Source of the DNA: an uncultured Clostridia bacterium
GTDB lineage: Bacteria; Bacillota; Clostridia; Oscillospirales; Acutalibacteraceae
Assembly: GCA_937892905.1 (NCBI GenBank)
Contig: CALBHS010000177.1
Span: forward strand, 25,286-89,285
Direction: 5' to 3'
Length of the DNA: 64,000 nucleotides
In this document: piece after piece, positions 10,975 to 64,000 of the stretch
Layout of the letters: each line of letters starts with the position of its first letter
How positions within the stretch are numbered: the first letter of the stretch is position 1
The notes under the pieces: model-generated
What the model saw: only the letters and a program-made list of their open reading frames with translations
Database searches by the model: none
Told to the model about the DNA's origin: nothing
Position numbers and translations under genes: made by a program

Positions 10975-11156
10975 TCTGGTGTTGCAATTATAAACAAGTT
11001 GCAGAAACTTTTATCCGGCAGAATCTAATCAGCCTTCCCCTTGGTAAATTTCTTTTTCTCTGCAATTACACATTAACACCTGATATTGTTCTTGAATATA
11101 AAAATTAAAAATATCGAACTTTCACATTAACCAACCTACAACTACACGGTGATACT

Positions 11157-12035
11157 ATGACAGACGAAAAAAAAGCAAACAGAACAGCGGTCGCGCTCGG
11201 AAACTTTGACGGCATACACATCGGCCATATGGCGGTGCTTGACGCGGCAAAGTCTTTTAAACGCGATGGACTTGTTCCTGTTGCCGTCCTGTTTGATGAA
11301 CATAGCCTGAAAGCTATCACAGGTGTTGCACCGCCCATGCTTATGACGGTCGCCGATCGCAATGAATTTATAATCAACAGCGGACTCAGTTTAAAAACGC
11401 TCATCTTTAATGAAATAAAGAATTTATCTCCCGAAGATTTTGTTGAAAAGATTCTTGTTGAAAAGCTCGGTGCCGGCGCAGTCTGCTGCGGATATAATTA
11501 CCGCTTCGGAAAGAACGCCGCAGGCACGGCGGTAACCTTACAGCAAATTTGTAATCGTCTTGGCATCGCTTGCAAAATTGCTAAAGAGGTCGATGTTGCG
11601 GGGAACGCGGTCAGCTCAACGGAAATCAGAAACTTGATCGAGCTCGGTGATATCGAAAAAGCAAACGGGATGCTCGGTCATAAATTCGGTTTTTCAGCGC
11701 CCGTAATTGACGGCGACAAAAGAGGAAGAACGCTCGGATTTCCCACGGTTAATCAGGAGATTCCGCCTGAGCTTGTAATGCCGAAGTTCGGGGTGTACCG
11801 CTCCGATGTTCTCGTTGACGGCAGGCATTATGCAGGCGTAACCAATATAGGCAAACGACCGACCGTAGGCACCCAAAAGATTCTCAGCGAAACTCATATC
11901 CTTGATTTTGATGAGAATGTTTACGGGAAAAATATTGACATAAGACTTGTTAAATTTATAAGATCCGAAAAAAAATTCTCATCATTTGACGAGCTTGCCC
12001 GTCAAATAGAGTCCGACACGAAAGAGGTGCGTTGA
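11157..12035 (+). CDS. ribF: Bifunctional riboflavin kinase / FMN adenylyltransferase
   Basis: ALGNFDGIHIGH at the N-terminus; a C-terminal riboflavin kinase domain (GRTLGFPTVN, the YG...I motif before LVKFIRSEKKF). Confidence 0.9.
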   Translation: MTDEKKANRTAVALGNFDGIHIGHMAVLDAAKSFKRDGLVPVAVLFDEHSLKAITGVAPPMLMTVADRNEFIINSGLSLKTLIFNEIKNLSPEDFVEKILVEKLGAGAVCCGYNYRFGKNAAGTAVTLQQICNRLGIACKIAKEVDVAGNAVSSTEIRNLIELGDIEKANGMLGHKFGFSAPVIDGDKRGRTLGFPTVNQEIPPELVMPKFGVYRSDVLVDGRHYAGVTNIGKRPTVGTQKILSETHILDFDENVYGKNIDIRLVKFIRSEKKFSSFDELARQIESDTKEVR

Positions 12036-52153: not shown

Positions 52154-53293
52154 TTATTTATTTTCAAAAACGCTTCTGAAGACAGCAGCAACTCTTTCGA
52201 GGTCCTCCTCGGTCATTGCCGTTCCGGACGGCATACATATACCGCGGCGGAAAACATCGTTGCCGACGCTTTCGCCTTCCTTGCAGCTGATGAAATCCAT
52301 CTCGGAGAAAATCGGCTGATTGTGCATCGGGTTCCAAGCACGTCTTGATTCTATGTTATCGTTCTCAAGAGCCTTAATTATATCGTCCGGTGTAACATTG
52401 CAGCCCTCATCTATTGTTATAACGCTGAGCCAGAAATTCGGCTGACAGCCCTCAAGCACCGGGGCCATCGTTACCGGAAGATCGGCAAAAGCTTTTTTAT
52501 AGAACTCATAGTTGCGAACTCTCGCCGCAATTCTTTCGTCCATATTTTTAAGCTGTCCTCTGCCGATGCCTGCACATATATTGGACATTCTGTAATTGTA
52601 TCCGATTTCATTATGGAGATAATAATTGACGTTTTCCTTAGACTGGTTTGACCAGAAGTGTATCTTTTCAATCGCGTCGGGATCATCCGAAAGAGCCATT
52701 CCGCCGCCGGAAGTCGTCACAATTTTATTTCCGTTAAAAGAGAGTGCGCTCACTTTTCCGAAAGTTCCGCACTTTCTTCCCTTATATGTAGTACCGAGAG
52801 CCTCGGCAGCGTCCTCCAAAACAGGAACATTATATTTCTCGCACAAAGGAAGAATCTTATCATAATTTGCACTGTTGCCGTAAAGATCAACAACAATAAC
52901 CGCCTTCGGGAGTCTGCCCATTGCGTCATATTTTTCAAAAGCAGCTTTCAGGGCATTCGGATCCATGTTGAAGCTCTCGTAGTCGGAATCAATAAATACA
53001 AGCTCCGCTCCGAGGTAAGCAACAGGATTACAGCTTCCCGAAAATGTGAAATCGGAGCAGAACACAATATCCCCGCGGCCAACGCCGAGATATTTTAGTC
53101 CCATGTGTATTGCACCGGTACCCGAAGAGAGCGCAACGCTGTACTTTGAGCCGACGTATTCACACATTTCCTTTTCAAATCCTGTAAGATTCGGACCGAA
53201 GGGGGAGATCCAGTTTGTCTGAAATGCCTCATTAATAAATTCAATCTCCGTTCCGTTCATGCACGGAGGGGATAGATAGATTCTTTTGTTCAT
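52154..53293 (-). CDS. DegT/DnrJ/EryC1/StrS family sugar aminotransferase (PglE/WcfR-like)
   Basis: PLP-dependent fold with typical blocks (SSGTGAIHMGL, DFTFSGS, NGNKIVTTSGGGM). Start placed at ATG 53293; a GTG at 53302 is also possible. Confidence 0.88.
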   Translation of the reverse strand: MNKRIYLSPPCMNGTEIEFINEAFQTNWISPFGPNLTGFEKEMCEYVGSKYSVALSSGTGAIHMGLKYLGVGRGDIVFCSDFTFSGSCNPVAYLGAELVFIDSDYESFNMDPNALKAAFEKYDAMGRLPKAVIVVDLYGNSANYDKILPLCEKYNVPVLEDAAEALGTTYKGRKCGTFGKVSALSFNGNKIVTTSGGGMALSDDPDAIEKIHFWSNQSKENVNYYLHNEIGYNYRMSNICAGIGRGQLKNMDERIAARVRNYEFYKKAFADLPVTMAPVLEGCQPNFWLSVITIDEGCNVTPDDIIKALENDNIESRRAWNPMHNQPIFSEMDFISCKEGESVGNDVFRRGICMPSGTAMTEEDLERVAAVFRSVFENK

Positions 53294-53316
53294 CTGATAC
53301 ACTTCTTTTCAGAAAA

Positions 53317-55065
53317 TTATTCGTTATCAATCTTGTTGCCCTTGTCAGGCTCTTGCTTTTGAGAAGTATTTCCGTAGCCATAACCGCCGTAACCGTAGCC
53401 GCCGTAACCGTAGCCGCCGTAGCCGTAATTGTTTCCGTAACCATAGCCATAACCGCCGTTTCCATAGCCATAACCACCGTAGCCGTAACCGCCGTAGCCA
53501 TAGCCGCCGTAACCGTAGCCGCCGCCATAGCCGTATCCGCCTGACTTTTTCTTCTTGCGGCCGTATCTGCCATAGTATCCGCCGTAACGAAGGTAGCCCT
53601 TACGTCTGTAATATCTGCTGTTTTCTTCACCGGCACTCATTGTAAATACCGCACCGAAAATCTCAATATCCGCACTTCTGATTTCATCAAGAGTACGGTT
53701 GATCTCAGTAACCTTGGCATAGTCGCGGCGAATACTGTATATGATTCCGTCGGCAAGAGGAGCAATAACAAGGCTGTCCGATACAACGTGAGCCGGCGGA
53801 GAATCTATGATAATATAATCGAATTCCTTTCTCGCCTGTTCAATAACCGCTTTAACCTTATCCGTGTCAAGAACCTCCGTTGACTTAAGTGATATTCCTC
53901 CTGTCGGAAGCACAAAAATACCGAGAGATTTAATGAACTTTATTGAATCAACATACGTTGATGTTCCCTTGATTATAGGAATAAGACCGTATCGTGTATC
54001 GCTCTTAACGCCGACCGCGTGCAAAACGGCAGGTTTTCTGAGGTCACTGTCTATAAGCAGTACCGACTTTCCTTTCTGAGCAAGGGAACAGGCAATATTT
54101 ACCGAAACGGTCGTTTTTCCTTCGTCCTCGTAGGTACTTGTAATAACAAAGACCTTATGACCCTTTTCCGCCTTGATATTCTCTATCTTTGTTCTTATCG
54201 CCTTAAAGCTCTCAACAAAAGCAAAGCTGACCTTTGATGTATCTGTTATAAGCAGCGATCCCTGCGGCGATTTTTTCTTTTGATTAAACAGTCCGGATCT
54301 CTTTTCGAGCAGGGGAACCGAACCGAGAACAGTAACGTTAATATCACGCCTCATGTTGTCGAGCGTAAGAACCGTATTTGTGGTAATTGTAATAATAAAG
54401 ATAATAAATGCAACTATTACTACGCCGAGTGCAAAGCCATAAACCGCTTTTTTCGTAGCGTCATCCGAATTGACTATTGACGGAGCGGTGGGATTCTTGA
54501 TCAGTTTGATAGAAATGGTATTATCGTAACTTTGAACATATTCCGGGAACTTTTCCAGTACAACCTTTAAGGCTCTTTCACAGTAGCCTTGATCCGTGCT
54601 TGTAACATTAACCGTAAAAAATCCGCCGATACCGGTATCCTCAATAGAAAGACTGTTTTCGACAAATGACGTTGAATACTCTTTTCCGACCTCATCGTTC
54701 GCCAGGGTGTTCTGTATCGTTGAAAGCATTTCGCTTCCCTTGATAAGATATTGATAATATGCGATCTGATTATTTGAAGAAAATTTCGTTTCCTGTTTAT
54801 ATTGTGTTGTTGAATCCTTACTGTTTGAATAGTCCTTAACAATAACATATTGAGTTGACATAAAACCCAGCGTCATTGACGCTCTGTAGGTTTCGACATA
54901 GGTTGCTTTGGCGATTGCAAATGCCGCACCGGAAAAGACCGCACCGACAAGCAGCATGATCCAAAGTTTTGAAATAAGATTCTTTGCCAGTCTGCCCATA
55001 TCGAGCGTGGGACCGGATTCGTTATAATATATACTCTTACCTACATCGAGTTCCTGCATTTCCAA
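53317..55065 (-). CDS. Fused polysaccharide co-polymerase (Wzz-like) / BY-tyrosine kinase with a very long Gly-Tyr C-terminal tail
   Basis: Two TM helices flank a periplasmic-type Wzz domain. The CpsD/CapB-type kinase has Walker A STYEDEGKTT, Walker A-prime LLIDSDLRKP and Walker B DYIIIDSPP. The C-terminal cluster has about 28 Tyr. Confidence 0.85.
   Translation of the reverse strand: MEMQELDVGKSIYYNESGPTLDMGRLAKNLISKLWIMLLVGAVFSGAAFAIAKATYVETYRASMTLGFMSTQYVIVKDYSNSKDSTTQYKQETKFSSNNQIAYYQYLIKGSEMLSTIQNTLANDEVGKEYSTSFVENSLSIEDTGIGGFFTVNVTSTDQGYCERALKVVLEKFPEYVQSYDNTISIKLIKNPTAPSIVNSDDATKKAVYGFALGVVIVAFIIFIITITTNTVLTLDNMRRDINVTVLGSVPLLEKRSGLFNQKKKSPQGSLLITDTSKVSFAFVESFKAIRTKIENIKAEKGHKVFVITSTYEDEGKTTVSVNIACSLAQKGKSVLLIDSDLRKPAVLHAVGVKSDTRYGLIPIIKGTSTYVDSIKFIKSLGIFVLPTGGISLKSTEVLDTDKVKAVIEQARKEFDYIIIDSPPAHVVSDSLVIAPLADGIIYSIRRDYAKVTEINRTLDEIRSADIEIFGAVFTMSAGEENSRYYRRKGYLRYGGYYGRYGRKKKKSGGYGYGGGYGYGGYGYGGYGYGGYGYGNGGYGYGYGNNYGYGGYGYGGYGYGGYGYGNTSQKQEPDKGNKIDNE
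53368..53544 (-). repeat. Coding microsatellite-like GGY/GY repeat (59 codons)
   Basis: Reiterated GGCTACGGx units visible as ccgtaaccgtagccgccgta... on the plus strand. It produces spurious A/T/V-rich ORFs in other frames. Confidence 0.8.
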
Positions 55066-55114
55066 ATCAACTCCATTTTATTAATTATAGTTTAAAATTT
55101 GCAATTAGTCAACA

Positions 55115-55873
55115 TCAAAAGCCCCTTTTGTATATTTCTCCTCTGTTTACGAGCGGAACTTCCTTGTTTGTAAGCACGCATTTTGCTGCATCATGAACCA
55201 TCATCTGCATATTGAACTGACTGATATCGGGAGGGAAGAAATTCATCATTTTCATAAGATCGTTCATTCTGTAGTGGGTCGAATGAGCATCCGTCGCAAT
55301 AAACGACGCTGCGCCGGCATATGCCATCGCATAAGCAAGCTCAAATTCCTGCGGTCCGTCAAGGCTTGCAAGGCTGGAGGCATTTATCTGGAACAGAACT
55401 CCGTTTCTTATTAAAGCATTGACCGCGTCATAATCAAACTGAAAATACTCGTATCTCTCCGGATGAGCAATTATGGGTATAAGTCCCATGTCAATAATTG
55501 TGTTGAGATATCCTATTATTCTTTTCATCGAAACATTCTTAAATGCAAATTCAATGAGAACATATCGGCTGCCGTTAATTGCAAGTCTTTTGAGATCCGT
55601 TGCAAAGAAAATATCGTCATCAACATATATCTCCGCTCCGGGATAAAGCGTTATTCCGAGATCAAGGTTTCGGACAATACCCTGAAGCTCCCTGATCTTA
55701 TCATTTCTGACTCTGACAAAATTATCTATATCGCCCATCGTAGTTATATGCGGAGTGCAAACAATATGTTTAATTCCGTTTTGCCCGGCAATTCTGCACA
55801 TTTGCACGGACATATCCATATTTTTAGATCCGTCATCCATTCCCGGAAGAATGTGGCAATGCAAATCAATCAT
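55115..55873 (-). CDS. CpsB/YwqE-type protein-tyrosine phosphatase (PHP family)
   Basis: The MIDLHCHILPGMDDGS N-terminus and later metal-binding His motifs. Confidence 0.88.
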   Translation of the reverse strand: MIDLHCHILPGMDDGSKNMDMSVQMCRIAGQNGIKHIVCTPHITTMGDIDNFVRVRNDKIRELQGIVRNLDLGITLYPGAEIYVDDDIFFATDLKRLAINGSRYVLIEFAFKNVSMKRIIGYLNTIIDMGLIPIIAHPERYEYFQFDYDAVNALIRNGVLFQINASSLASLDGPQEFELAYAMAYAGAASFIATDAHSTHYRMNDLMKMMNFFPPDISQFNMQMMVHDAAKCVLTNKEVPLVNRGEIYKRGF

Positions 55874-55901
55874 ATCAAGCCATCCTTTGTCAAAATAACT
55901 C

Positions 55902-57065
55902 TTATTGCTCTTTGTTCAATATATTGTCGGCAGCAATCGCAAAGCCCTGTGCGGCAGGCACAATGCAAAGCTTTTCCGAATAAAAGCCGATTCCGTGTGT
56001 GTCACCCTGTGAAAAATCCACAATTCCGTTTCTTCTTGTTACGGACCTGAGTTTTTCCCTCATCTTGAGTGCAAGCTCTTTATATTCTTCGTTTTTTAAC
56101 AGATCTGCCAGATAAGCATAGCAATATGCAAGCATCGCACACGCCGAGCTGTCCTGCGTTGAAAAGCTTATCACTATTCTGTCAACGGTACCGTCATCAT
56201 GAATATATTTCTTCAAGGCTTCAAAAAACTCCATTGAAATTTTAAGAAGTTCAGCCTTTTCCTTGTTGTATCCGTCTGTTTCGAGCAAGGCACGCAAGCT
56301 GTCAACGAGTCCGATTCCCCACCAGGCACATCCTCTGCCCCAACCGCATATGCCAAGCGGTTCAAGCGAGCCTTCGCAAAAGCCATGGAAAGGAAGTTTT
56401 GTTGTTTTATCAATTCCGTTTTCACGGTATTCTCTTATTTGTTTAACGGCAAGATCAATATACTCTTTTTCATTATAAGTAATAGCATATTTTATAAGAA
56501 ACGGACAAGCCATTCCCACCGTGTCAACAAGCCTGTATTTCGGAAAAGACTCGTTATACGGGATCGTACCGTTCTTTTCCGCAGAAATCTTAAGCATATA
56601 TGCGGCATTCTCCATCGCAGGCTTGATCTCTTTGCTGTCAACATACTTGCTTGACAAAAGCTCATAGCAAAGCATTGCACTGTCCATTCTTTTCGGCAAA
56701 ACCTTCCATTCACCGTCTTCTACCGGAATGTATCTCGTTGCAAGGAGTCTGACTTCCGTTTCAACATTTTCATCCATGCCGTTTGCCGCTTTCAAAAGAG
56801 AGGCGTCCTGCCAATACATCACGGAAGTAATTTTTCCGTAGTCATTTATCTTTTTTATAAAGCTGATTTTTCTGTTGTCATTTATTAAAACCTCAGGCGC
56901 ACCTTTTTCCATCCAACGCAGAAGGATTTTCCGTGTTTTTTTATGCCACTCGGATTCGGCAAGCTGTCCGATTTTTATACGTCCGAGCCATGTAAAAAAT
57001 TCTTCCCACCTATCATAGCCGAGAACAGCTATTACAATTAAAAGCAGTATCACAATTATAGTCAT
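55902..57065 (-). CDS. Membrane-anchored glycoside hydrolase family 88/105-like (six-hairpin) protein
   Basis: An N-terminal TM helix, then DTVGMACPFL, GWGRGCAWWGIGL and QDSSACAM, which resemble the Glyco_hydro_88 blocks. Not verified by an HMM. Confidence 0.5.
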   Translation of the reverse strand: MTIIVILLLIVIAVLGYDRWEEFFTWLGRIKIGQLAESEWHKKTRKILLRWMEKGAPEVLINDNRKISFIKKINDYGKITSVMYWQDASLLKAANGMDENVETEVRLLATRYIPVEDGEWKVLPKRMDSAMLCYELLSSKYVDSKEIKPAMENAAYMLKISAEKNGTIPYNESFPKYRLVDTVGMACPFLIKYAITYNEKEYIDLAVKQIREYRENGIDKTTKLPFHGFCEGSLEPLGICGWGRGCAWWGIGLVDSLRALLETDGYNKEKAELLKISMEFFEALKKYIHDDGTVDRIVISFSTQDSSACAMLAYCYAYLADLLKNEEYKELALKMREKLRSVTRRNGIVDFSQGDTHGIGFYSEKLCIVPAAQGFAIAADNILNKEQ

Positions 57066-57075
57066 TTGATTTGCC

Positions 57076-58263
57076 TCACCCGTTAATTATATTATAAAGT
57101 TTATTCAATTCCTCTTCATTACCGATCTTTTCTTTTTTCAGATTCTCACTCAGCTTTTCCCTTTCTTCCGATCGGTCTATAAGCTTTTCTATTTTATCAG
57201 CCATATCAATTTTATTCATTTGACAAACAATTCCGTTAACGCCGTTATTAATCTGATCGCGGACTGTCGAAAAATCCGTAACCACTATCGGACGGCAAAG
57301 ACATTTTGCTTCATCAATCGCAATTGATTTACCCTCATAAAGGGACGGCTGAACATAGATGTCGCATTGTCCGATATACGGGTACGGCTCCGATTTTTCT
57401 CCGAGCAGAATAAAGACATTATCAAGTCCGCTGTCGGAAATTTGATTCTTAATCTGTTCTTTTAACGGTCCGTCACCGATATGATACCATTTAACTTTTT
57501 TCTTTCTGCGTACAAGCTCGGCGCAAGCGTCAACGGCAAGAGAAATATTCTTCTGCTCAAAAAATCTGCCGACCGTACAAATAATTATATCACTGTTTCG
57601 GTCGGGATACGCATTAAATCTTGCACTTTCTTTTTTTATAATTTCTCCGCTTGTTATGTTTTCAACAACGCAAAGTTTTTCTGTGAACTCCGGAAAATTA
57701 TGTAACAGACTTTGCAAGCACTTCTCGGAAACGGTCACAATTTCATCTGCTTTTTCAAATGTTTTTCTGCAAATTTTTATACTGAGTCCAAGCTTTTCAA
57801 TATCATTATGAACATAACATATTTTTCGCGAAGCATTTACGTTTTCAACAACAAAACGGTTTGCATTTCCCTCAAGATATCCTATTGCACAGTCGTATTT
57901 TTTATTAATTTTCGGAAGCTGTTTTTTTAAATATTTCCACTGTTGTTCCTCGGCTTTTTCATTGTCATTTTCAGCTGAAATTTTTGAATACTTCCATCTG
58001 TCTGCCGCCGAGGAGAACATTCCTTTTTTCAGGAAATATTTTACCGCCGCAACCGCGTCACCGTCAAACATCTCATAGCTTTCGTTACCGCCGATTATGT
58101 TGACGCTGTCGGGAATTTTCTCAAAGAACAATCCGTCATGGCGAAAACAAAGCAAGTCCACATCGTATTTATCATAGTCAAAAAGTGTAAGCACTGTCAG
58201 CAGACTTTTTTCTGCGCCTCCGCTTCGCATTGAGGGAATAACAAAAAGTATTTGCTTTTTCAA
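57076..58263 (-). CDS. Glycosyltransferase family 4 (GT-B)
   Basis: ILFVIPSMRSGGAEKS N-terminus and a C-terminal E-x7-E-like region (PSLYEGKSIAIDEA). Start placed at TTG 58263 (GGGAG SD) to avoid a 38-nt overlap. Confidence 0.8.
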   Translation of the reverse strand: MKKQILFVIPSMRSGGAEKSLLTVLTLFDYDKYDVDLLCFRHDGLFFEKIPDSVNIIGGNESYEMFDGDAVAAVKYFLKKGMFSSAADRWKYSKISAENDNEKAEEQQWKYLKKQLPKINKKYDCAIGYLEGNANRFVVENVNASRKICYVHNDIEKLGLSIKICRKTFEKADEIVTVSEKCLQSLLHNFPEFTEKLCVVENITSGEIIKKESARFNAYPDRNSDIIICTVGRFFEQKNISLAVDACAELVRRKKKVKWYHIGDGPLKEQIKNQISDSGLDNVFILLGEKSEPYPYIGQCDIYVQPSLYEGKSIAIDEAKCLCRPIVVTDFSTVRDQINNGVNGIVCQMNKIDMADKIEKLIDRSEEREKLSENLKKEKIGNEEELNKLYNIING

Positions 58264-58276
58264 GCTACCACTCCCG

Positions 58277-59425
58277 TCAGATTTTCTGAAGCGTTTCTCC
58301 CGCTTCCATGGCACTTCTCATTCTCAGAGGAATACTTCTCATAAGCTCACCTCTGATGTCGTTCTCGTTCACAACCATTTTTAAGAATTCTTTTTTTAAC
58401 GGCTCGGCGTCAGTCATTGAGCCGAAATTCAGAACGTATTTCTCTTCACCGAAAATGTCCTTTGCAATTCCCCTCGCTTTAACGCTGTAACCGAGAGCAA
58501 CCGTGGGTACTCCGCTTGAATATGCGGCAATGGTTGCGTGGGTTCTTGCGCCGATAAAAAATCTTGTATGTGCAATATAACCCTTATACTGTCTTGCGTC
58601 AAAAGTCGGCGGCAAAATCGTTATTCTGCCCGTGTCGGCAAATTTGTCATAGAAGGGCTTCATATAATCATAGTCGTTATTGTTATCCTCGACAACATGA
58701 GGAATAAGCATTATTTTCATTGTTGTGTTTTTAAATACAAAGCTTATAAAATCCTCGACGATTTCTCTTTTTTTCGGATCGCCCTTTGTGATAAGGGGAC
58801 TTATATTAAATCCGAGCGTGTTTTCTCTTGTAAAGCCCTCTATCGGCTCTACATCTGCCCTTTCTAAGCAAAAGGCCGGATCGGAATATAAGTATATATT
58901 ATCATTTGCTGCTTTCTCTTTCAGAAGCTCATATGTAATCGGCTCTCTTGCAAAGATTGCGTCAAAATCGGCAAGACTTTCAAGCTTTTCGTCAGAGAGA
59001 TCCTCTGCGCCGATCGAGGCACCCCAAAGCACTGTTTTCTTCCCTGCTTTTTTAAGCTCTCTTGTCAACACACGAATTCCGTGATTATCCCCGTAGCAAT
59101 ATGTATCACCGCCTACAGAAAGACAAATGTCGCTTTTCTCTGCATCGGACACAATCGGCGAATACATTTTTTCAAGTGCATACTCCTCGGACTTGTTTAT
59201 TTTCAAATCCATCACGGCAATTATTTTTTCGGGAATTGTCAGCTCTCTACGAACTGCCGGCTTCACTTCAACACCCTTAATTATTTTATCTGCTTCGGCA
59301 TCATTTGAAGAAAGAATAAATTCCGCCTTTTCGTCACTGTTTTCAATAATGTTGACAGTACCTCTGACAAGCGCCTCGCAGCCATGGTTTTTGCTGCCGG
59401 CATGATTAAACATAAAATACTTCAT
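58277..59425 (-). CDS. Polysaccharide pyruvyl transferase family protein
   Basis: The MKYFMFNHAGSKNHGCEAL N-terminus and overall layout are typical of the CsaB/WcaK-type family. Start set at Met80 of the track ORF. Confidence 0.8.
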   Translation of the reverse strand: MKYFMFNHAGSKNHGCEALVRGTVNIIENSDEKAEFILSSNDAEADKIIKGVEVKPAVRRELTIPEKIIAVMDLKINKSEEYALEKMYSPIVSDAEKSDICLSVGGDTYCYGDNHGIRVLTRELKKAGKKTVLWGASIGAEDLSDEKLESLADFDAIFAREPITYELLKEKAANDNIYLYSDPAFCLERADVEPIEGFTRENTLGFNISPLITKGDPKKREIVEDFISFVFKNTTMKIMLIPHVVEDNNNDYDYMKPFYDKFADTGRITILPPTFDARQYKGYIAHTRFFIGARTHATIAAYSSGVPTVALGYSVKARGIAKDIFGEEKYVLNFGSMTDAEPLKKEFLKMVVNENDIRGELMRSIPLRMRSAMEAGETLQKI

Positions 59426-59435
59426 TATAAAATCC

Positions 59436-60578
59436 TCATCTGAAAAGTTTTCTTCCCGGTAGGAAATAATCTGATTGATACATATAAATCTGATATGCCA
59501 TAAATCGTGAATATAGGAAGAACAATAAAACAAGTCCGGTTGTGTATATCGCGCGATCCTTTTGCTTAACGGCATAGAAAACAACCCATCCCGTAAAGAT
59601 AATGAAAAACGGCTGCAAGTAAATTCCCAGTCTTGCAAAAATCCAGTTATAGCTGGCAACAATGTATACTGCCATGTTGAGGAACGCCATATTTATCAGA
59701 ATATCTCCGATATGTCCGAGCTTATTCATTCTCTCACGGTTAAGGTAAGCAACAACAATCGGTGCTGCGGCAACGACAGCCCTGAACAAGCTGCTTCCGC
59801 CCTCTTTACCCTCGGTAAACCAACCGTTATCGGCATATGCCGCATAGCTTGTATCTCTAAGTGCATTTAAAAACGAAGGCAGTATAGCGTCAAAGCAAAC
59901 CGTTACAATAACACTGCCCAATACGATTATATAGGAGCTTCTTTTCCACGCCTTTCTGCGTACAATAAAAAACACGACTAACATTATTATGGCACTGCTG
60001 TGCATCCAGTACGCCAGTATAACGAAAATGGCATATTTAAAAAACGCTCCGCGTTTCATCGAAAAAAGGAATTTTGTTCCGAGCAAAATTATTGCCGCGG
60101 CCATATATTGGCGCATTCCGTCCATCATTCCGCCGAGATATCCGTATGCAACAAACATATAAATAGACAATTCAAACGGCGATGAATAAAAATAAAAAAT
60201 CAGCAGCGGCGGAACCAATGCAATTACGGCACAAATAAAAATCAAAATCTGCGGATCATCCGTATGATTTCTGATAATATTCTGAATAAATTCAAACATT
60301 CTGCCTTCGGTTATCATTGACAGCGAAACTTCATTTTCATCCGGCATTCCCTGAAAGGAATACATATAAAAATAGGTATCTCCGATAGTTCTTCTGAGTC
60401 CTGCGAATGAAACATAAAAGGCAATCGGAAAGATAGCGGCGATAGGATTAGGTAACGGCTGACCAAGACCTCCTTGTGCCTTGAGCGGAAACGAACGAGC
60501 TGCCATTGCAATAAGACACATCGCAAACGTGGCAACCCAAACGACTATTTCGTAGAAGTCAAAATCAAAATTAATCAT
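59436..60578 (-). CDS. EpsG family membrane protein (Wzy-type polymerase candidate)
   Basis: Polytopic membrane protein with the RRTIGDTYFYMYSF motif characteristic of EpsG. The start at 60578 (GGAGAAAGGA SD) or at 60620 is ambiguous. Confidence 0.7.
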   Translation of the reverse strand: MINFDFDFYEIVVWVATFAMCLIAMAARSFPLKAQGGLGQPLPNPIAAIFPIAFYVSFAGLRRTIGDTYFYMYSFQGMPDENEVSLSMITEGRMFEFIQNIIRNHTDDPQILIFICAVIALVPPLLIFYFYSSPFELSIYMFVAYGYLGGMMDGMRQYMAAAIILLGTKFLFSMKRGAFFKYAIFVILAYWMHSSAIIMLVVFFIVRRKAWKRSSYIIVLGSVIVTVCFDAILPSFLNALRDTSYAAYADNGWFTEGKEGGSSLFRAVVAAAPIVVAYLNRERMNKLGHIGDILINMAFLNMAVYIVASYNWIFARLGIYLQPFFIIFTGWVVFYAVKQKDRAIYTTGLVLLFFLYSRFMAYQIYMYQSDYFLPGRKLFR

Positions 60579-60606
60579 TCCGTTCCTTTCTCCGTAGAAA
60601 AAATCT

Positions 60607-61719
60607 CTAACAATATCCATCGTAAACCGTTTCCACTTCGTTTAATACTTTTTCTTTTGAAAAAGGTTCCGCAAGTTTTACACCGTTATCCGAAAGCTTA
60701 TTATACAAATCTTTATTATTATTTATCAGCCTTATTTTGTCTGCCATTGCCGCATCATCGTTCGGTGAAATGATATATCCGTTATATCCGTCACGGCATA
60801 ATTCGCGATGCCCTCTGTTGTCGGCAAGAACTACGGGAAGTCCGCACGCCATAGCCTCCATTACATTGACGGGCAAGCCCTCGCGAAGACTGGAACACAC
60901 TGCGATATCGCTCATATGCACAAGATCGCTCACGTCATTTCTGTGTCCGAGGAATTCAACACAGTCGGACACTCCGAGTTCTTCTGCGAGCCTGATATAT
61001 CTGCCGTTATAATTATCCGCTCCGACCAAAAGCAAGCGATATTTTCCGTCAGCTTTTTTCAGCCTTTGCATGGCACGAATCAGCATTCCCTGATTCTTAT
61101 TTTCATTCATCTCCGCAACATAGATCAGGACTGTTTCATCAGTATCATAGCCCTTTTCACGGCGAAGTCTTAATTTCTCTTCATCTGTCACTTTATAAAA
61201 AAGATCGCTGTTAAAACCGACACCGTTGACCTTAACTGTTTTTTTTGCTTTTAAATGCTTTTTGGCAAATTCATAGTCTTCGTTATTTATCGTTATCAGG
61301 CAATCCGTTACCGTTGAAAAAGCAAGCTCGATCGGATAAAAAACAAGCCAGTTAAGAAGCGGCGCTCCCTTATAAAAATGAAAGCCGTGGGCTGTGTAAA
61401 TAACCTTCACACCTTTTTTTCTTTCGCCCATCGCGGCAAGTCTTGCAAGAATTCCACCCATCGGAGTATGGCAATGTATAATGCTGTAGCCGCCGTTTTT
61501 TATAATTGATTTCAGCTCTTTATATGCCTTTAAATTTTCTCTGTCGGCAGGGGAGCGTCTGATGGGAATTTCAAACCTATTGTCGCAATACGGCAATTCT
61601 CTGTCGCCGTGGCAGGCAACATCCACTTGCCACCCTTTTTCTTTAAACAACTTAAAACAAGGCAAATGAAAATAAAAAAAATGTTCCGCAACCGTTGCGA
61701 CAAAAAGTATTTTTTTCAT
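60607..61719 (-). CDS. Glycosyltransferase family 4 (GT-B)
   Basis: MKKILFVATVAEHF... N-terminus and a C-terminal SLREGLPVNVMEAMACGLPVV motif. Confidence 0.85.
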   Translation of the reverse strand: MKKILFVATVAEHFFYFHLPCFKLFKEKGWQVDVACHGDRELPYCDNRFEIPIRRSPADRENLKAYKELKSIIKNGGYSIIHCHTPMGGILARLAAMGERKKGVKVIYTAHGFHFYKGAPLLNWLVFYPIELAFSTVTDCLITINNEDYEFAKKHLKAKKTVKVNGVGFNSDLFYKVTDEEKLRLRREKGYDTDETVLIYVAEMNENKNQGMLIRAMQRLKKADGKYRLLLVGADNYNGRYIRLAEELGVSDCVEFLGHRNDVSDLVHMSDIAVCSSLREGLPVNVMEAMACGLPVVLADNRGHRELCRDGYNGYIISPNDDAAMADKIRLINNNKDLYNKLSDNGVKLAEPFSKEKVLNEVETVYDGYC

Positions 61720-61737
61720 TACGGAGCATCCTTTCAT

Positions 61738-62367
61738 TCAGACTCTCTCTGTTTCTTTATTTCCGCTGAATTTTTCCATTGTGTTTTCTTTTCCGCTGTT
61801 TATTCCGTCCTGGCGAATAACATTTTGAATGGTTTTGAAAAATATTTTCATATCCATAAGAAAACCGTAATGGTCAACATAATAAATATCATAAGAAAAT
61901 TTTTCATCCCAAGTCAGCGTGTTGCGTCCGTTTACCTGCGCCCAACCTGAGATTCCGGGTAAAACATCATGTCTTCGCATCTGTTCCGGCGAATACAGAT
62001 CAAGGTATTCAATAAGCAGCGGCCTGGGACCGATAAAGCTCATATCGCCCTTGATAATATTGAAAAGCTGCGGCAGCTCGTCCACGCTTGTCTTTCTGAG
62101 AATTCTGCCGATTTTTGTCATTCTTTCAAAATCGCTCAGTTCTCTGCCATTTTCGTCACAGAGCTTTGTTGACATCGTTCTGAACTTATAAACCGTAAAT
62201 ATCTTACCGTTTTTCCCCGGTCTTTTTTGCTTAAAAAGAACCGGGCCGTCACGATTTGCCGCAATAAGGATTGCCGACAAAATCATAAGCGGCGACAACA
62301 ATATCGCCAGCAAAACCGCCGTCAGCAAATCCATTATTCTTTTAATATACTTATACACCCGATTCAC
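61738..62367 (-). CDS. Small monotopic phosphoglycosyl (sugar) transferase, PglC/WcfS/EpsL-like
   Basis: 209 aa with one N-terminal re-entrant helix, and KFRTM, DELPQL and SFIGPRP motifs. Confidence 0.9.
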   Translation of the reverse strand: MNRVYKYIKRIMDLLTAVLLAILLSPLMILSAILIAANRDGPVLFKQKRPGKNGKIFTVYKFRTMSTKLCDENGRELSDFERMTKIGRILRKTSVDELPQLFNIIKGDMSFIGPRPLLIEYLDLYSPEQMRRHDVLPGISGWAQVNGRNTLTWDEKFSYDIYYVDHYGFLMDMKIFFKTIQNVIRQDGINSGKENTMEKFSGNKETERV

Positions 62368-62386
62368 TCTCTCGCAAAAAATTCAA

Positions 62387-64000
62387 TCAATTAATTTCAG
62401 CTTCATGATAATTCGGAACAATTTCTTTAATAATTCCTCTTACCTCATTTTCATCGGCTTTCTTAAGTTTTTCAAGCTCCTGCTCAAAGAGATTGTCGTC
62501 CATATCGACAGGCTTGGTAACAAATATTTTGTTGTTTGCCGTCATCTTTCTCTCATCGCTTTCTTCGTCAAGCACAAGCTCCTCATAGAGCTTTTCACCC
62601 GGACGAAGACCGGAGAATTTGATTTCAATTTCTGTATAGGGCTTATATCCCGAAAGCATGATAAGGTTCTCGGCAAGAGTAACTATTTTAACGGGTTCTC
62701 CCATATCGAGAACAAAAATTTCTCCGCCCTTTGCAAGACCGCCTGCCTGAACAACAAGCTGTGCGGCTTCGGGAATAGTCATAAAATATCTTGTTATATT
62801 CGGATGCGTTACCATAACCGGTCCGCCGTTTTTAATCTGCTCTGTAAAAATCGGAATTACACTTCCGCTTGAACCGAGAACATTGCCGAAGCGTACAGCG
62901 GCAAAGATCGTGCTGTTTTTGCATTTGCGTTCAAAGTACTGCACAATCATCTCGGTAATTCTTTTTGTGGCGCCCATGACGTTAGCCGGATTAACGGCCT
63001 TGTCCGATGATATGTTTACAAAACGCTTTACATTATATTCGACAGCGATGCTCGCAACATTGAATGTGCCGAAAACATTATTTTTAACCGCTTCTTTCGG
63101 ACTGTCCTCCATGAGCGGAACGTGTTTATGCGCCGCCGCATGAAAAACAATCGACGGGTGGAACTCTTCAAAAATCTCTCTGAGTCTTGCCTGATCTCTG
63201 ACAGATCCTATCCTGATATCAATTTCGGGATTGCCGTGATGATATGCGTCAAGCTGCTGCTTGAGAAGATATGCGCTGTTCTCATATATATCGAACACAA
63301 CGATTTTTTTCGGGTGATATTTTGAAACCTGACGGCAAAGCTCGCTTCCGATAGAACCGCCGCCGCCCGTTACAAGTACGACCTGATCCTTAAGATATCC
63401 GCAGACATCTCTGTTCAGTTCAACTTCGGGTCTTGAGAGAAGATCCGTAATATTTACATCTCTGATTCTTCCGCCCTTGGAGGTATCGGTCATTTCCAGA
63501 AGGCTCGGAGAGGTTTTGAGCTTACATCCTGTCTTGACCGCTATGCGGAGAATTTCCGTCTGCCTTTCGCTGTCAACCGACGGCAGGCACATGATTATCG
63601 TGTTAATGTTATATTTTTTTGCAAGTTCGGGTATCTGATCGCAGGTTCCCTTGACAGGAATTCCGCGAATTCTTTTTCCGACCTTAAGAGGGTTGTCGTC
63701 TACGGCAATAATCGGTTTGCCCCTTGCATAGTTGTTAACTTCAAGCTCGTTAATAATGATCATTCCCATATCGCCCGCGCCGACGATCATTACACGATCG
63801 AGTTTTTCGTCCATCTTGAGATTTCTCTCACGGTAATATCTTCTTACAAGGCGATATATAATTCTCATTCCCGCAACAAGTATAATTGCGACGAGAGTTC
63901 CGAAAATATAAAAGAAAGCGTCAAAACAACCGTTTTTAAGTTGGGAAGCAGCTCCGCCGATGCTGGAAAGAATCAAATCAACGGCAATTCCCGAAATTCC
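62387..64000 (-). CDS. Membrane-bound NDP-sugar 4,6-dehydratase (CapD/PglF/WbpM family); 5-prime end is outside the window
   Basis: Two Rossmann motifs (VMIVGAGDMG, VLVTGGGGSIGSEL). The frame stays open from the track start 63976 (TTG) to position 64000, so the gene continues upstream. Confidence 0.88.
   Translation of the reverse strand, partial: GISGIAVDLILSSIGGAASQLKNGCFDAFFYIFGTLVAIILVAGMRIIYRLVRRYYRERNLKMDEKLDRVMIVGAGDMGMIIINELEVNNYARGKPIIAVDDNPLKVGKRIRGIPVKGTCDQIPELAKKYNINTIIMCLPSVDSERQTEILRIAVKTGCKLKTSPSLLEMTDTSKGGRIRDVNITDLLSRPEVELNRDVCGYLKDQVVLVTGGGGSIGSELCRQVSKYHPKKIVVFDIYENSAYLLKQQLDAYHHGNPEIDIRIGSVRDQARLREIFEEFHPSIVFHAAAHKHVPLMEDSPKEAVKNNVFGTFNVASIAVEYNVKRFVNISSDKAVNPANVMGATKRITEMIVQYFERKCKNSTIFAAVRFGNVLGSSGSVIPIFTEQIKNGGPVMVTHPNITRYFMTIPEAAQLVVQAGGLAKGGEIFVLDMGEPVKIVTLAENLIMLSGYKPYTEIEIKFSGLRPGEKLYEELVLDEESDERKMTANNKIFVTKPVDMDDNLFEQELEKLKKADENEVRGIIKEIVPNYHEAEIN

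What the first reader, a model, noticed from the sequence alone, without database searches (positions are those of the whole stretch)
53368..53625. Fused Wzz/BY-kinase with an unusually long Gly-Tyr tail encoded by a slippage-prone repeat
Seen: the C-terminus of the 582-aa kinase reads ...RYYRRKGYLRYGGYYGRYGRKKKKSGGYGYGGGYGYGGYGYGGYGYGGYGYGNGGYGYGYGNNYGYGGYGYGGYGYGGYGYGN... I count about 28 tyrosines in roughly 85 residues. Of these, 59 codons are a nearly pure (G)GY repeat built from reiterated GGCTACGGx DNA units (53368-53544). Established: BY-kinases autophosphorylate a C-terminal Tyr cluster that, as far as I recall, normally holds only a handful of tyrosines. In Firmicutes the modulator (CpsC/CapA) and kinase (CpsD/CapB) are usually separate proteins, whereas here they are fused as in proteobacterial Wzc. 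Inference: the tail could be a very high-capacity phospho-acceptor. GY-rich low-complexity regions in eukaryotic proteins self-associate, so it could also be a phosphorylation-tunable self-association module for the capsule machinery. The DNA repeat could also vary in length between strains.
Basis: partly seen in the sequence, partly recalled or inferred. Interest (0 to 1): 0.6.

Follow-up and report, generated by a model that had tools for sequence, protein, structure and literature searches.

The report
Capsule tyrosine kinase, expanded Gly-Tyr tail
A gut Clostridia bacterium's polysaccharide-regulating tyrosine kinase really does end in a disordered tail with 28 tyrosines, about three times the family median. 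Such tails are normal for its own clade and have expanded repeatedly in related kinases, so this is an extreme natural variant of a known regulator, not a new system.

Summary
ORF 53317-55065 (minus strand, 580-582 aa) is a fused two-TM modulator plus BY-kinase. All 28 tail tyrosines lie in residues 485-564. The 58-codon Gly-Tyr core (21 Y, 33 G) lies at 53371-53544. A CpsB PHP phosphatase gene sits directly upstream, inside a Wzy-type polysaccharide locus.

The tail is long against characterised kinases (2-6 Tyr) and against 130 family representatives (median 9 Tyr, 2 with 28 or more). It is ordinary for its own clade: every complete homologue at 64% identity or more carries 16-26 Tyr, and relatives at 46-61% carry 20-34. 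A tree needs 5-7 gains or losses of tails with 20 or more Tyr. Phe is almost absent from the repeats, and the body shows 28 synonymous and 0 non-synonymous changes against the nearest relative, so the protein is under selection.

The DNA repeat is no more perfect than synonymously shuffled versions (p about 0.06). It is not a fast slippage switch, although unit number differs between close assemblies.

Fusion is common among its Clostridia relatives and paralogues.

The best reading is an expanded autophosphorylation Y-cluster cycled by CpsB. The condensate idea is untested. This scan noted the same kind of tail before on other DNA (e1-2003218).

The parts
53317..55065 (-). Fused modulator plus BY-kinase gene (582 aa from TTG 55065; 580 aa if ATG 55059 is the start; stop codon at 53317-53319)
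   Evidence: ORF. TIGR01007 135.6 bits, above the cutoff of 108.05, over residues 285-487; weak TIGR01006 CpsC-type match over residues 20-255. Foldseek top hits are full-length Wzc 7NHR and the CapA1B1 chimera 4JLV, TM 0.91.
54904..54966 (-). Transmembrane helix 1 (residues 34-54)
   Evidence: AF2 helix 34-54 with pLDDT 86-91; Kyte-Doolittle peak starts near residue 30.
54460..54903 (-). Extracellular alpha/beta loop, 148 residues (55-202). Its size is that of CpsC/CapA, not Wzc.
   Evidence: AF2 secondary structure and confidence; weak TIGR01006 match.
54379..54459 (-). Transmembrane helix 2 (residues 203-229)
   Evidence: AF2 helix 203-229; strongest hydrophobic peak at residues 207-229.
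54214..54378 (-). Juxtamembrane segment (residues 230-284), equivalent to the CapA C-terminal activator peptide
   Evidence: PDB sequence hits to the engineered CapA-Ct/CapB chimeras 3BFV, 2VED and 4JLV begin at query residues 236-238, so they cover the CapA part.
53626..54213 (-). BY-kinase catalytic domain (residues 285-480): ESFKAIR 285-291, Walker A ..EGKT 309-318, Walker A' VLLIDSDLR 335-343, Walker B YIIIDSPP 417-424
   Evidence: Motif scan; these residues are invariant in the 42-sequence alignment A2; Pfam AAA_31/ParA/CbiA.
53545..53625 (-). Proximal basic Tyr cluster, ENSRYYRRKGYLRYGGYYGRYGRKKKK (residues 481-507; 7 Tyr). It resembles the whole tail of shorter-tailed relatives.
   Evidence: Relatives of 505-513 aa have only YYYRRRKGYYKGYY-type tails. 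VpsO (6U1Q) aligns through this stretch to residue 501.
53371..53544 (-). Gly-Tyr repeat core (residues 508-565; 58 aa, 21 Tyr, 33 Gly, no charged residue)
   Evidence: AF2 pLDDT below 50 with no secondary structure across residues 478-582.
53320..53370 (-). Polar C-terminal end, NTSQKQEPDKGNKIDNE (residues 566-582). The last residues, [KQ]-I-[DE]-[NK]-[EK], are conserved behind the variable repeat.
   Evidence: Tail listing of homologues at 64% identity or more.
55115..55873 (-). CpsB/CapC-type PHP phosphotyrosine phosphatase gene, directly upstream on the same strand
   Evidence: PF19567, E 2.8e-52. A CpsB gene lies directly upstream of the kinase in every long-tail locus that has upstream sequence: L001, L002, L004-L010.
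52154..53302 (-). DegT/LegC-type sugar aminotransferase, the last gene of the locus; it starts 14 nt after the kinase stop
   Evidence: PF01041, E 4.8e-91; TIGR04181.
55902..63976 (-). Rest of the Wzy-type polysaccharide locus: GH88-like, GT1, pyruvyl transferase, EpsG-type polymerase, GT4, Bac_transf initiating transferase, CapD-type dehydratase
   Evidence: Pfam scans.

Best explanation
The gene encodes a polysaccharide co-polymerase/BY-kinase of a Wzy-dependent capsule or exopolysaccharide locus. Two transmembrane helices and a small outer loop (the CpsC part) are joined in one chain to the cytoplasmic P-loop tyrosine autokinase (the CpsD part).

The disordered C-terminal tail is an expanded version of the family's Y-cluster. 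It has three parts: a basic proximal cluster of 7 Tyr, which matches the entire tail of shorter relatives; an uncharged (G)GY repeat of 21 Tyr inserted behind it; and a short conserved polar end.

By analogy with CapAB and Wzc, the tail of one subunit is fed into the active site of its ring neighbour and phosphorylated stepwise. The accumulating charge opens the ring. The CpsB phosphatase encoded directly upstream resets the tail. This cycle paces polymerisation and export.

The extra tyrosines most likely enlarge the number of phosphorylation steps, and therefore the charge range and cycle time. They do not add a new activity. The repeat number is an evolvable quantitative trait that has expanded and shrunk many times in Clostridia.

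Shown here: architecture, motifs, fold, predicted disorder, conserved phosphatase pairing, distribution, and selection on Tyr. Inferred: that the repeat tyrosines are actually phosphorylated, and what that does to the cycle.
For: Family and fold:
- TIGR01007 scores above its cutoff. The Walker A, A' and B motifs are present and invariant.
- Sequence hits include VpsO, BceF, Wzc and CapAB. Foldseek matches Wzc 7NHR and CapA1B1 (TM 0.91).
- The tail, residues 478-582, is predicted unstructured.

Locus and partner:
- It is a Wzy-type locus.
- CpsB lies directly upstream here and in every long-tail relative that has upstream sequence.

Continuity with the known Y-cluster:
- 130 family representatives form a continuum of G/Y/K/R-rich tails with median 9 Tyr, interquartile range 6-12, maximum 31.
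- CpsD's tail is a (YGX)4 repeat (title of PMC154072, cited).

Selection:
- In the repeat cores, Tyr is 35% and Phe 0.08-0.11% of 9159 and 2848 residues.
- The body shows 28 synonymous and 0 non-synonymous codon changes against L001.
- Synonymous sites in the repeat are as scrambled as chance allows, so the repeat is old and is kept at the protein level.
- Long tails are retained from 93% down to 46% identity.

Mechanistic analogy: octamer, tail in the neighbour's active site, extent-dependent disassembly after about 4 pTyr, a ratchet through the YxY motif, and a PHP phosphatase in Gram-positives (PMC9800525; PMC11986026; PMC2422856).
Against: - There is no phosphorylation data for this protein or for any long-tailed relative.
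- In Wzc about four phosphates are enough to open the ring, so 28 acceptors are far more than the known mechanism needs.
- Tail length is not tightly constrained. It ranges from 53 to 94 residues within the clade at 64% identity or more. Assemblies with a near-identical body encode 531-547-aa forms that lack most of the repeat. If those are real, the repeat is dispensable at least in the short term.
- The first Arg of the oligomerisation motif ExxRxxR is a Lys here (ESFKAIR).
Confidence: 0.65

Rival explanations
1. Low-complexity self-association module. The uncharged, aromatic, glycine-rich repeat (about 21 [G]Y[G] motifs in 58 residues) makes kinase tails stick to each other or to partner proteins. 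This would cluster capsule machines, and tyrosine phosphorylation would dissolve the cluster. It would act as a bacterial counterpart of FUS-type [G/S]Y[G/S] domains.
For: The core has no charged residue and is 93% Gly plus Tyr. It is predicted disordered. Tyr is strongly preferred over Phe, as reported for eukaryotic GY domains (my own knowledge, not tested). A basic patch precedes the core and a conserved polar motif follows it. A kinase and a phosphatase that could tune it are both encoded on the spot.
Against: Nothing computed here tests self-association. The preference for Tyr over Phe is explained equally well by phosphorylation. Shorter-tailed relatives interleave K/R with YG (YGKYGRYG), which suits a kinase substrate more than a sticker array. 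I found no paper linking BY-kinase tails to condensates; the only co-occurrences were in reference lists. In an octameric ring the tails are already held at high local concentration.
Confidence: 0.12
2. Largely neutral repeat expansion. Only the proximal Tyr cluster is the working Y-cluster. The GY repeat is a tolerated, drifting expansion in a disordered tail, acting at most as a flexible spacer for the conserved C-terminal ..KIDNE end.
For: The proximal segment alone equals the complete tail of relatives of 505-513 aa. The unit number varies among close relatives and may drop to almost nothing in assemblies with a near-identical body. Long and short tails interchange 5-7 times on the tree. 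The terminal motif is conserved behind the variable repeat.
Against: Every complete homologue from 93% down to 64% identity keeps 16-26 Tyr, and relatives at 46-61% keep 20-34. Synonymous sites are randomised while Gly and Tyr are kept. Phe, His, Cys, Asp and Asn, each one base change from Tyr, stay rare in the cores. A neutral spacer would decay in composition.
Confidence: 0.18
3. Fast contingency locus. The DNA repeat slips frequently, so a population carries kinases with different tail lengths as a bet-hedging device for capsule regulation.
For: Tail indels occur between assemblies whose kinase body has no amino-acid difference. The repeat units are in frame. The contig of the closest named relative (L002) ends inside the tail, which hints at assembly trouble or heterogeneity there.
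Against: The longest perfectly periodic tract is 23 nt at offset 15 (38 nt in all). The longest exact repeat is 24 nt. Neither exceeds synonymously shuffled versions (p 0.06 and 0.08). TRF finds only 65-70% matches. The 'near-identical' relative L001 is in fact separated by 28 synonymous changes across 491 codons, against only a few tail indels, so the indel rate is modest. No frameshift switching is possible.
Confidence: 0.04
4. Assembly artefact: the repeat was mis-built from short reads.
For: Repeats can be mis-assembled, and reads could not be checked. Cluster members of 531-547 aa could be collapsed assemblies.
Against: More than 100 independent assemblies from several sources give the same tail type. 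Four of seven members of the 90% cluster are 580-581 aa. The reading frame and the conserved C-terminal end are intact. The longest exact internal repeat (24 nt) is shorter than the usual final assembly k-mers and shorter than read length.
Confidence: 0.01

Closest known systems
Streptococcus pneumoniae CpsB/CpsC/CpsD (F-type, PCP-2b BY-kinase system)
   Same: Small two-TM modulator part. P-loop autokinase with Walker A, A' and B motifs. A C-terminal YG-type repeat as the autophosphorylation site; CpsD has (YGX)4 with 3 phosphorylated Tyr. A PHP-type CpsB phosphatase gene next to the kinase. A Wzy-dependent locus.
   Different: Here the modulator and the kinase are one polypeptide. The tail has 28 Tyr rather than 3-4, including a 58-residue uncharged (G)GY core. 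The gene order is cpsB then the fused gene, with no separate cpsC.
Staphylococcus aureus CapA/CapB, and the engineered CapA-Ct/CapB chimera (PDB 3BFV, 2VED, 4JLV)
   Same: Best structural match to the cytoplasmic part (TM 0.91 to 4JLV). The sequence alignment starts in the CapA activator peptide, so the natural fusion here reproduces the engineered chimera. In CapAB the Tyr cluster is a flexible loop that enters the neighbour's active site in an octamer.
   Different: CapB's cluster is about 16 residues with 4 Tyr. Here the tail is about 100 residues with 28 Tyr. CapA and CapB are separate genes.
Escherichia coli Wzc (P-type, PCP-2a; PDB 7NHR, 9EXO, 3LA6)
   Same: A single chain of TM, loop, TM, kinase and Tyr-rich tail. 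Top Foldseek hits over the full length. It supplies the best mechanistic model: octamer, ratchet, and disassembly after about 4 pTyr.
   Different: Wzc has a periplasmic domain of about 400 residues that contacts Wza, an LMW-PTP partner (Wzb) and 6-7 tail Tyr. Here the loop is 148 residues, there is no outer-membrane partner, the phosphatase is PHP-type, and the Wzc equivalog models score far below their cutoffs (83.7 against 1068).
Long-tailed fused BY-kinases of gut and rumen Clostridia (uncharacterised; MAGs labelled Ruminococcus sp., Acutalibacteraceae, Oscillospiraceae, Clostridia bacterium)
   Same: Direct relatives at 46-98% identity with the same architecture, the same upstream CpsB, and tails of 16-34 Tyr. 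This scan reported the same kind of tail earlier in another genome (e1-2003218).
   Different: None in kind. The window's copy sits at the upper end of its immediate clade, with 25 Tyr after the anchor against 16-26 there. Relatives at 46-53% identity place the basic patch after the repeat, not before it, and add a long polar extension.

Membership tests
BY-kinase (bacterial tyrosine autokinase, TIGR01007 / CpsD-CapB-Wzc catalytic domain) | Profile match above the curated threshold | tested here: met
   TIGR01007 scores 135.6 bits against a cutoff of 108.05, over residues 285-487.
BY-kinase (bacterial tyrosine autokinase, TIGR01007 / CpsD-CapB-Wzc catalytic domain) | Walker A (GK[ST]), Walker A' (hhhhDxDxR) and Walker B (hhhhDxxP) motifs | tested here: met
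   EGKT at 315-318, VLLIDSDLR at 335-343, YIIIDSPP at 417-424. The key residues are invariant in 42 homologues.
BY-kinase (bacterial tyrosine autokinase, TIGR01007 / CpsD-CapB-Wzc catalytic domain) | C-terminal tyrosine cluster on a flexible tail | tested here: met
   28 Tyr in residues 485-564. pLDDT is below 50 with no secondary structure over residues 478-582.
BY-kinase (bacterial tyrosine autokinase, TIGR01007 / CpsD-CapB-Wzc catalytic domain) | Fold of the solved kinase domains | tested here: met
   Foldseek: 4JLV TM 0.91, 3BFV 0.87, 6Z0P 0.86, 3LA6 0.84, with E from 1e-16 to 1e-18.
BY-kinase (bacterial tyrosine autokinase, TIGR01007 / CpsD-CapB-Wzc catalytic domain) | Oligomerisation motif ExxRxxR on helix alpha-2 | tested here: inconclusive
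   The sequence is ESFKAIR (285-291), with Lys in place of the first Arg. E285 and R291 are invariant or nearly so in homologues.
BY-kinase (bacterial tyrosine autokinase, TIGR01007 / CpsD-CapB-Wzc catalytic domain) | Autophosphorylation on tail tyrosines | not testable with these tools
   Needs a biochemical assay.
P-type Wzc (PCP-2a) | Modulator and kinase in one polypeptide | tested here: met
   A single ORF with TM1 34-54, TM2 203-229 and kinase 285-480.
P-type Wzc (PCP-2a) | Large periplasmic domain (about 400 aa) and a match to the Wzc/Etk equivalog models | tested here: not met
   The loop is 148 residues. NF008568 scores 83.7 against a cutoff of 1068, and NF007350 scores 98.1 against 1248.
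P-type Wzc (PCP-2a) | Cognate LMW-PTP (Wzb) phosphatase | tested here: not met
   The adjacent phosphatase is PHP-type CpsB (PF19567). I did not search the genome for an LMW-PTP.
F-type CpsC/CpsD (PCP-2b) | Modulator and kinase as two separate polypeptides | tested here: not met
   They are fused in one ORF, both here and in nearly all relatives listed.
F-type CpsC/CpsD (PCP-2b) | Small extracellular loop between two TM helices (CpsC family) | tested here: met
   A 148-residue loop. The TIGR01006 match is weak, 23.9 bits and far below its cutoff of 296, so this rests on topology rather than on the profile.
F-type CpsC/CpsD (PCP-2b) | PHP-family CpsB phosphatase encoded alongside | tested here: met
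   PF19567, E 2.8e-52, at 55115-55873. The pairing is conserved in the long-tail relatives.
F-type CpsC/CpsD (PCP-2b) | YG-type repeat tail ((YGX)n) | tested here: met
   The tail consists of GY/YG units. The number is about seven times that of CpsD.

The most novel reading that the evidence does not exclude
The uncharged 58-residue (G)GY core is a bacterial low-complexity 'sticker' domain. It would drive reversible higher-order clustering of polysaccharide-assembly machines. Multisite tyrosine phosphorylation by the protein's own kinase domain would dissolve the clusters, and CpsB would restore them. If so, gut Clostridia have repeatedly evolved a kinase with a built-in, phospho-tunable condensation module.
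Probability: 0.1. Interest if true: 0.75.

Novelty: new variant of a known kind. Interest (0 to 1): 0.38.

Why it matters
BY-kinase function is thought to depend on the extent of tail phosphorylation, not on particular sites. In Wzc the ring opens after about four phosphates. A natural lineage with 20-34 tail tyrosines, a conserved partner phosphatase, and close relatives with 5-12 tyrosines offers a ready-made series for testing this model. The question is whether the number of acceptor sites sets the cycle time, and with it polymer length or amount.

The result also corrects a textbook simplification. In gut and rumen Clostridia the fused architecture, usually called proteobacterial, is common among this protein's relatives. 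It comes with a Gram-positive-sized outer loop and a PHP phosphatase.

For genome annotation the practical message is that long Gly-Tyr tails on these kinases are genuine and conserved. They are not assembly errors or pseudogene debris.

Tried and rejected
- **Read support and strain polymorphism.** I did not try another route.
- **Literature on long GY tails.** 'tyrosine kinase' + 'YGYG' + 'polysaccharide' gave 0 papers. 'BY-kinase' + 'phase separation' gave only reference-list co-occurrences. I found no description of such tails in Clostridia.
- **Contingency-locus reading.** Rejected after the synonymous-codon shuffle, and because L001 differs from the window by 28 synonymous changes.
- **Membership in Wzc proper.** Rejected: small loop, PHP phosphatase, and equivalog scores far below cutoff.
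- **Single origin of long tails.** Rejected by the kinase-domain tree, which needs 5-7 changes; starred branches alone force at least 5. This was a FastTree analysis with weak deep support, so the exact number is soft.
- **Shadow ORFs.** The ORFs across the repeat on the other strand or frame (53353-53544 plus strand, 53241-53636 minus strand) are by-products of the repeat, not genes.
- **Collapsed-tail cluster members.** I did not look up the contigs of P0269, P0270 and P0272, because proteins from the listing of cluster members are outside the stated scope of the look-up of encoding contigs.
- **Bias caveat.** The representative and homologue searches used the full-length fused protein. They therefore favour fused relatives, so 'fusion is common' is shown for this protein's relatives and paralogues, not for all Clostridia.
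Full report
**1. What is there**

The ORF listing shows a single ORF at 53317..55065 on the minus strand, 582 aa from a TTG. An ATG two codons downstream (55059) is the start used by gene callers in other assemblies, and a GGAG lies 5 nt upstream of the TTG and 11 nt upstream of the ATG.

After residue 480 there are 102 residues with 28 Tyr and 39 Gly. I divide them into three parts:
- a basic proximal cluster, ENSRYYRRKGYLRYGGYYGRYGRKKKK (residues 481-507, 7 Tyr);
- an uncharged (G)GY core (residues 508-565, window 53371-53544: 58 residues with 21 Tyr, 33 Gly, 3 Asn, 1 Ser);
- a polar end, NTSQKQEPDKGNKIDNE.

Tandem Repeats Finder reports overlapping degenerate arrays. The best has period 15, 10.2 copies and 70% matches. 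Only the description of the DNA as a clean GGCTACGGx array is too generous.

**2. What the protein is**

- NCBIfam TIGR01007 (polysaccharide biosynthesis tyrosine autokinase) scores 135.6 bits, above its cutoff of 108, over residues 285-487. A weak CpsC-family match covers residues 20-255. The Wzc and Etk equivalog models score far below their cutoffs. Pfam finds only the generic P-loop families.
- The Walker A (EGKT 315-318), A' (VLLIDSDLR) and B (YIIIDSPP) motifs are present and invariant in 42 homologues. The oligomerisation motif reads ESFKAIR, with Lys in place of the first Arg.
- PDB sequence hits are VpsO, BceF, Wzc, the CapA-Ct/CapB chimeras and Etk. The alignments to the CapAB chimeras begin in the CapA activator peptide.
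- An AlphaFold2 model built on 42 sequences (mean pLDDT 70.7) gives confident TM helices at 34-54 and 203-229, a 148-residue alpha/beta loop and the kinase domain. Residues 478-582 have pLDDT below 50 and no secondary structure.
- Foldseek places the model on full-length Wzc (7NHR and others, E about 1e-27) and on CapA1B1 (TM 0.91).

The gene sits in a Wzy-type polysaccharide locus. In minus-strand order the genes are: CapD-type dehydratase, Bac_transf initiating transferase, GT4, EpsG-type polymerase, pyruvyl transferase, GT1, GH88-like, CpsB PHP phosphatase (55115-55873, PF19567, E 2.8e-52), the kinase, and a DegT/LegC-type aminotransferase.

**3. How unusual the tail is**

Against characterised kinases it is extreme:
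- Wzc has Y705-Y715 (6 Tyr), CpsD has 3 phosphorylated Tyr, and EpsB has 2 (PMC9800525).
- CapB has 4 Tyr in a cluster of about 16 residues (PMC2422856).
- CpsD's tail is described as a (YGX)4 repeat (title cited).

Against the family at large it lies in the upper tail of a continuum. I took the 150 best cluster representatives, each cluster defined at 50% identity, out of 64,576 hits in 1.84 billion proteins. Of these, 130 have an alignable kinase end and a tail shorter than 200 residues. They show median 9 Tyr, quartiles 6 and 12, and maximum 31. Eight have 20 or more Tyr and two have 28 or more. The median tail length is 39 residues. Nearly all of these tails are G/Y-rich with interspersed K, R or S.

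Within its own clade it is normal. In the tail table, counts run from the 'RKGYL' anchor at residue 491; by that count the window has 25 Tyr in 91 residues.
- All 68 best hits (65-98% identity) carry 16-26 Tyr in tails of 53-94 residues.
- A second group at 45-53% identity carries 16-33 Tyr in tails of 74-177 residues.
- A third group at about 48-50% identity (505-513 aa) has only YYYRRRKGYYKGYY-type tails of 9-12 Tyr.

Named genome records tell the same story.
- The closest is an uncultured Ruminococcus sp. MAG (93%). Next come Clostridia and Acutalibacteraceae MAGs from goat, sheep, yak and deer gut.
- Loci L002-L010 have 20-34 Tyr.
- Other Oscillospiraceae, Ruminococcaceae, Lachnospiraceae and Blautia copies mostly have 6-15 Tyr in YGYGYG runs.
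- Acidobacteriota, Actinomycetota and Proteobacteria copies have 3-8 Tyr.

A FastTree of 145 kinase domains, with tails excluded, needs 7 changes of the state '20 or more Tyr'. Starred branches force at least 5, against a shuffled mean of 14.4. The window lies in a well-supported 17-row clade that holds 9 long-tailed and 8 shorter-tailed members. Long tails are thus clustered but have expanded or contracted repeatedly.

**4. Is the repeat under selection, and is it slippage-prone?**

- *Body.* Against the nearest public relative (L001, same gene neighbourhood), the 491-codon body differs at 28 codons, all synonymous. The protein is under strong purifying selection, and the two strains are not near-clonal.
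- *Tail.* Over the same divergence the tail shows a few in-frame unit gains and losses and one Gly-to-Asp change.
- *Composition.* In the repeat cores of 246 homologues, Tyr makes up 34.7% and Phe 0.08% of 9159 residues. In the representatives alone, Tyr is 36.5% and Phe 0.11%. His, Asp, Asn, Cys and Ser, all one base change from Tyr, are also minor. The hydroxyl-bearing aromatic residue itself is being kept.
- *DNA.* The longest perfectly periodic run is 23 nt at offset 15, and the longest exact repeat is 24 nt. When codons are shuffled among identical amino acids, 6% and 8% of 1000 shuffles reach these values. The DNA is about as scrambled as the protein repeat allows. That marks an old repeat kept by selection on the protein, not a recently amplified or highly slippage-prone array.
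- *Frame.* All repeat units are multiples of three, so no frameshift switching is possible.
- *Short variants.* Members of the 90% cluster with 0-3 body substitutions are 580-581 aa in four cases and 531, 539 and 547 aa in three. The short ones lack most of the core. They may be real in-frame deletions or assembly collapses. Because the longest exact internal repeat is only 24 nt, collapse at the usual final k-mer sizes seems less likely, but this is inference.

**5. Architecture in context**

The literature calls the split form the Firmicutes type. Shi et al. report 98.7% of Firmicutes BY-kinases as CD type (PMC4007543). Among this protein's relatives, nearly every Clostridia copy has 240-300 residues ahead of the kinase domain, which means it is fused.

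The window's own genome (231 contigs, 2.39 Mb) carries at least three more fused paralogues with 5-12 tail Tyr. One is on contig C197 and two are adjacent on C111. It also has a CD-only copy without tail tyrosines on C18. These searches used a fused query, so they over-sample fused proteins. They show that fusion is common here, not what its exact frequency is.

The outer loop of 148 residues and the PHP phosphatase are Gram-positive features. The protein is best described as a naturally fused CpsC-CpsD, not as a Wzc.

CpsB lies directly upstream of the kinase in the window and in every long-tail locus with upstream sequence (L001, L002, L004-L010, at 45-99% identity). In the window's genome, this kinase is the only one with a close CpsB neighbour.

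**6. Most likely mechanism**

By homology the kinase domains form a ring. Each tail enters the neighbour's active site, phosphates accumulate, the ring opens, and the phosphatase resets it. The extent of phosphorylation matters, not the particular site. In Wzc, YxY motifs order the tail as a one-way ratchet, and the ring disassembles after the fourth phosphate.

The proximal basic cluster here corresponds to the complete tail of shorter relatives, and it aligns with the tail of VpsO. The GY core is an insertion of further substrate units behind it. I therefore read the tail as an expanded Y-cluster that enlarges the number of phosphorylation steps and the attainable charge, cycled by the adjacent CpsB. 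I put this at about 0.65.

No data show that the repeat tyrosines are phosphorylated, and 28 acceptors exceed what the known mechanism needs. Two rivals therefore remain:
- The repeat is a tolerated, drifting spacer for the conserved ..KIDNE end (about 0.18). Long-term retention and compositional purity argue against it.
It is compatible with the composition and the predicted disorder but is untested. I found no literature on it.

A fast contingency locus (about 0.04) and an assembly artefact (about 0.01) are unlikely.

**7. Novelty and verdict**

The feature is real and conserved. It is an extreme natural variant of the BY-kinase Y-cluster, in a fused architecture that is ordinary for gut and rumen Clostridia. 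I found no published description of it. This scan reported the same kind of tail before in another genome (e1-2003218) and Gly-Tyr tails in Bacteroidota Wzc. I used those notes as leads and re-tested the claims on this DNA.

It is a new variant of a known kind and of moderate interest. Its main value is as a natural series for testing how the number of acceptor tyrosines sets the kinase cycle.

Noticed in passing
own genome contig C111, about 9184-11352 (minus strand); not in the window: Two fused modulator plus BY-kinase genes lie side by side, with tails of 5 and 12 Tyr. A further fused paralogue is on C197, with a catalytic domain 44.5% identical. None of them has a close CpsB gene next to it. 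An earlier scan note (e1-2316054) calls such pairs normal in gut and rumen Clostridia.
   Followed up: partly
window 55057-55074: The start codon is ambiguous. TTG 55065 lies 5 nt after a GGAG, and ATG 55059 lies 11 nt after it. Gene calls in other assemblies start at the ATG (MQELD...), which would make the protein 580 aa.
   Followed up: partly
window 53320-53337 and homologues P0001-P0068: The extreme C-terminus, [KQ]-I-[DE]-[NK]-[EK] (here KIDNE), is conserved behind the length-variable repeat across the clade at 64% identity or more. This suggests a terminal docking or recognition motif. It lies before the stop codon and does not overlap the ribosome-binding site of the downstream gene.
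   Followed up: no
family representatives P0142, P0158, P0164, P0165, P0193, P0228, P0195, P0223: A subclade of proteins of about 900 aa ends exactly at the kinase domain, with no tyrosine tail at all. Two others (942 and 879 aa) appear to hold two modulator-kinase units in one chain.
   Followed up: no
window 53371-53592 compared with 53593-55065: Codon use in the tail differs from the body. In the tail, TAC:TAT is 17:8 and GGC is 24 of 38 Gly codons. In the body, TAC:TAT is 8:16 and GGC is 7 of 30 Gly codons.
   Followed up: no
window 53353-53544 (+) and 53241-53636 (-): ORFs of 63 and 131 aa lie across the repeat in other frames (Ala/Val/Thr-rich). They are shadow ORFs produced by the repeat, not genes.
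   Followed up: yes
window 52154-63976: The surrounding polysaccharide locus combines a pyruvyl transferase, a DegT/LegC-type aminotransferase, a CapD-type dehydratase and a GH88-like protein. Another first-stage note (e1-3702481) flags this gene set as a possible signature of a zwitterionic or pyruvylated polysaccharide. I did not examine that idea.
   Followed up: no
L002 (CALBHM010000284.1, uncultured Ruminococcus sp. MAG): The contig of the closest named relative ends inside the tail-coding repeat, and its last residues (APPPKKGKGKRK) differ from the clade's usual ending. This may be an assembly break at the repeat.
   Followed up: no
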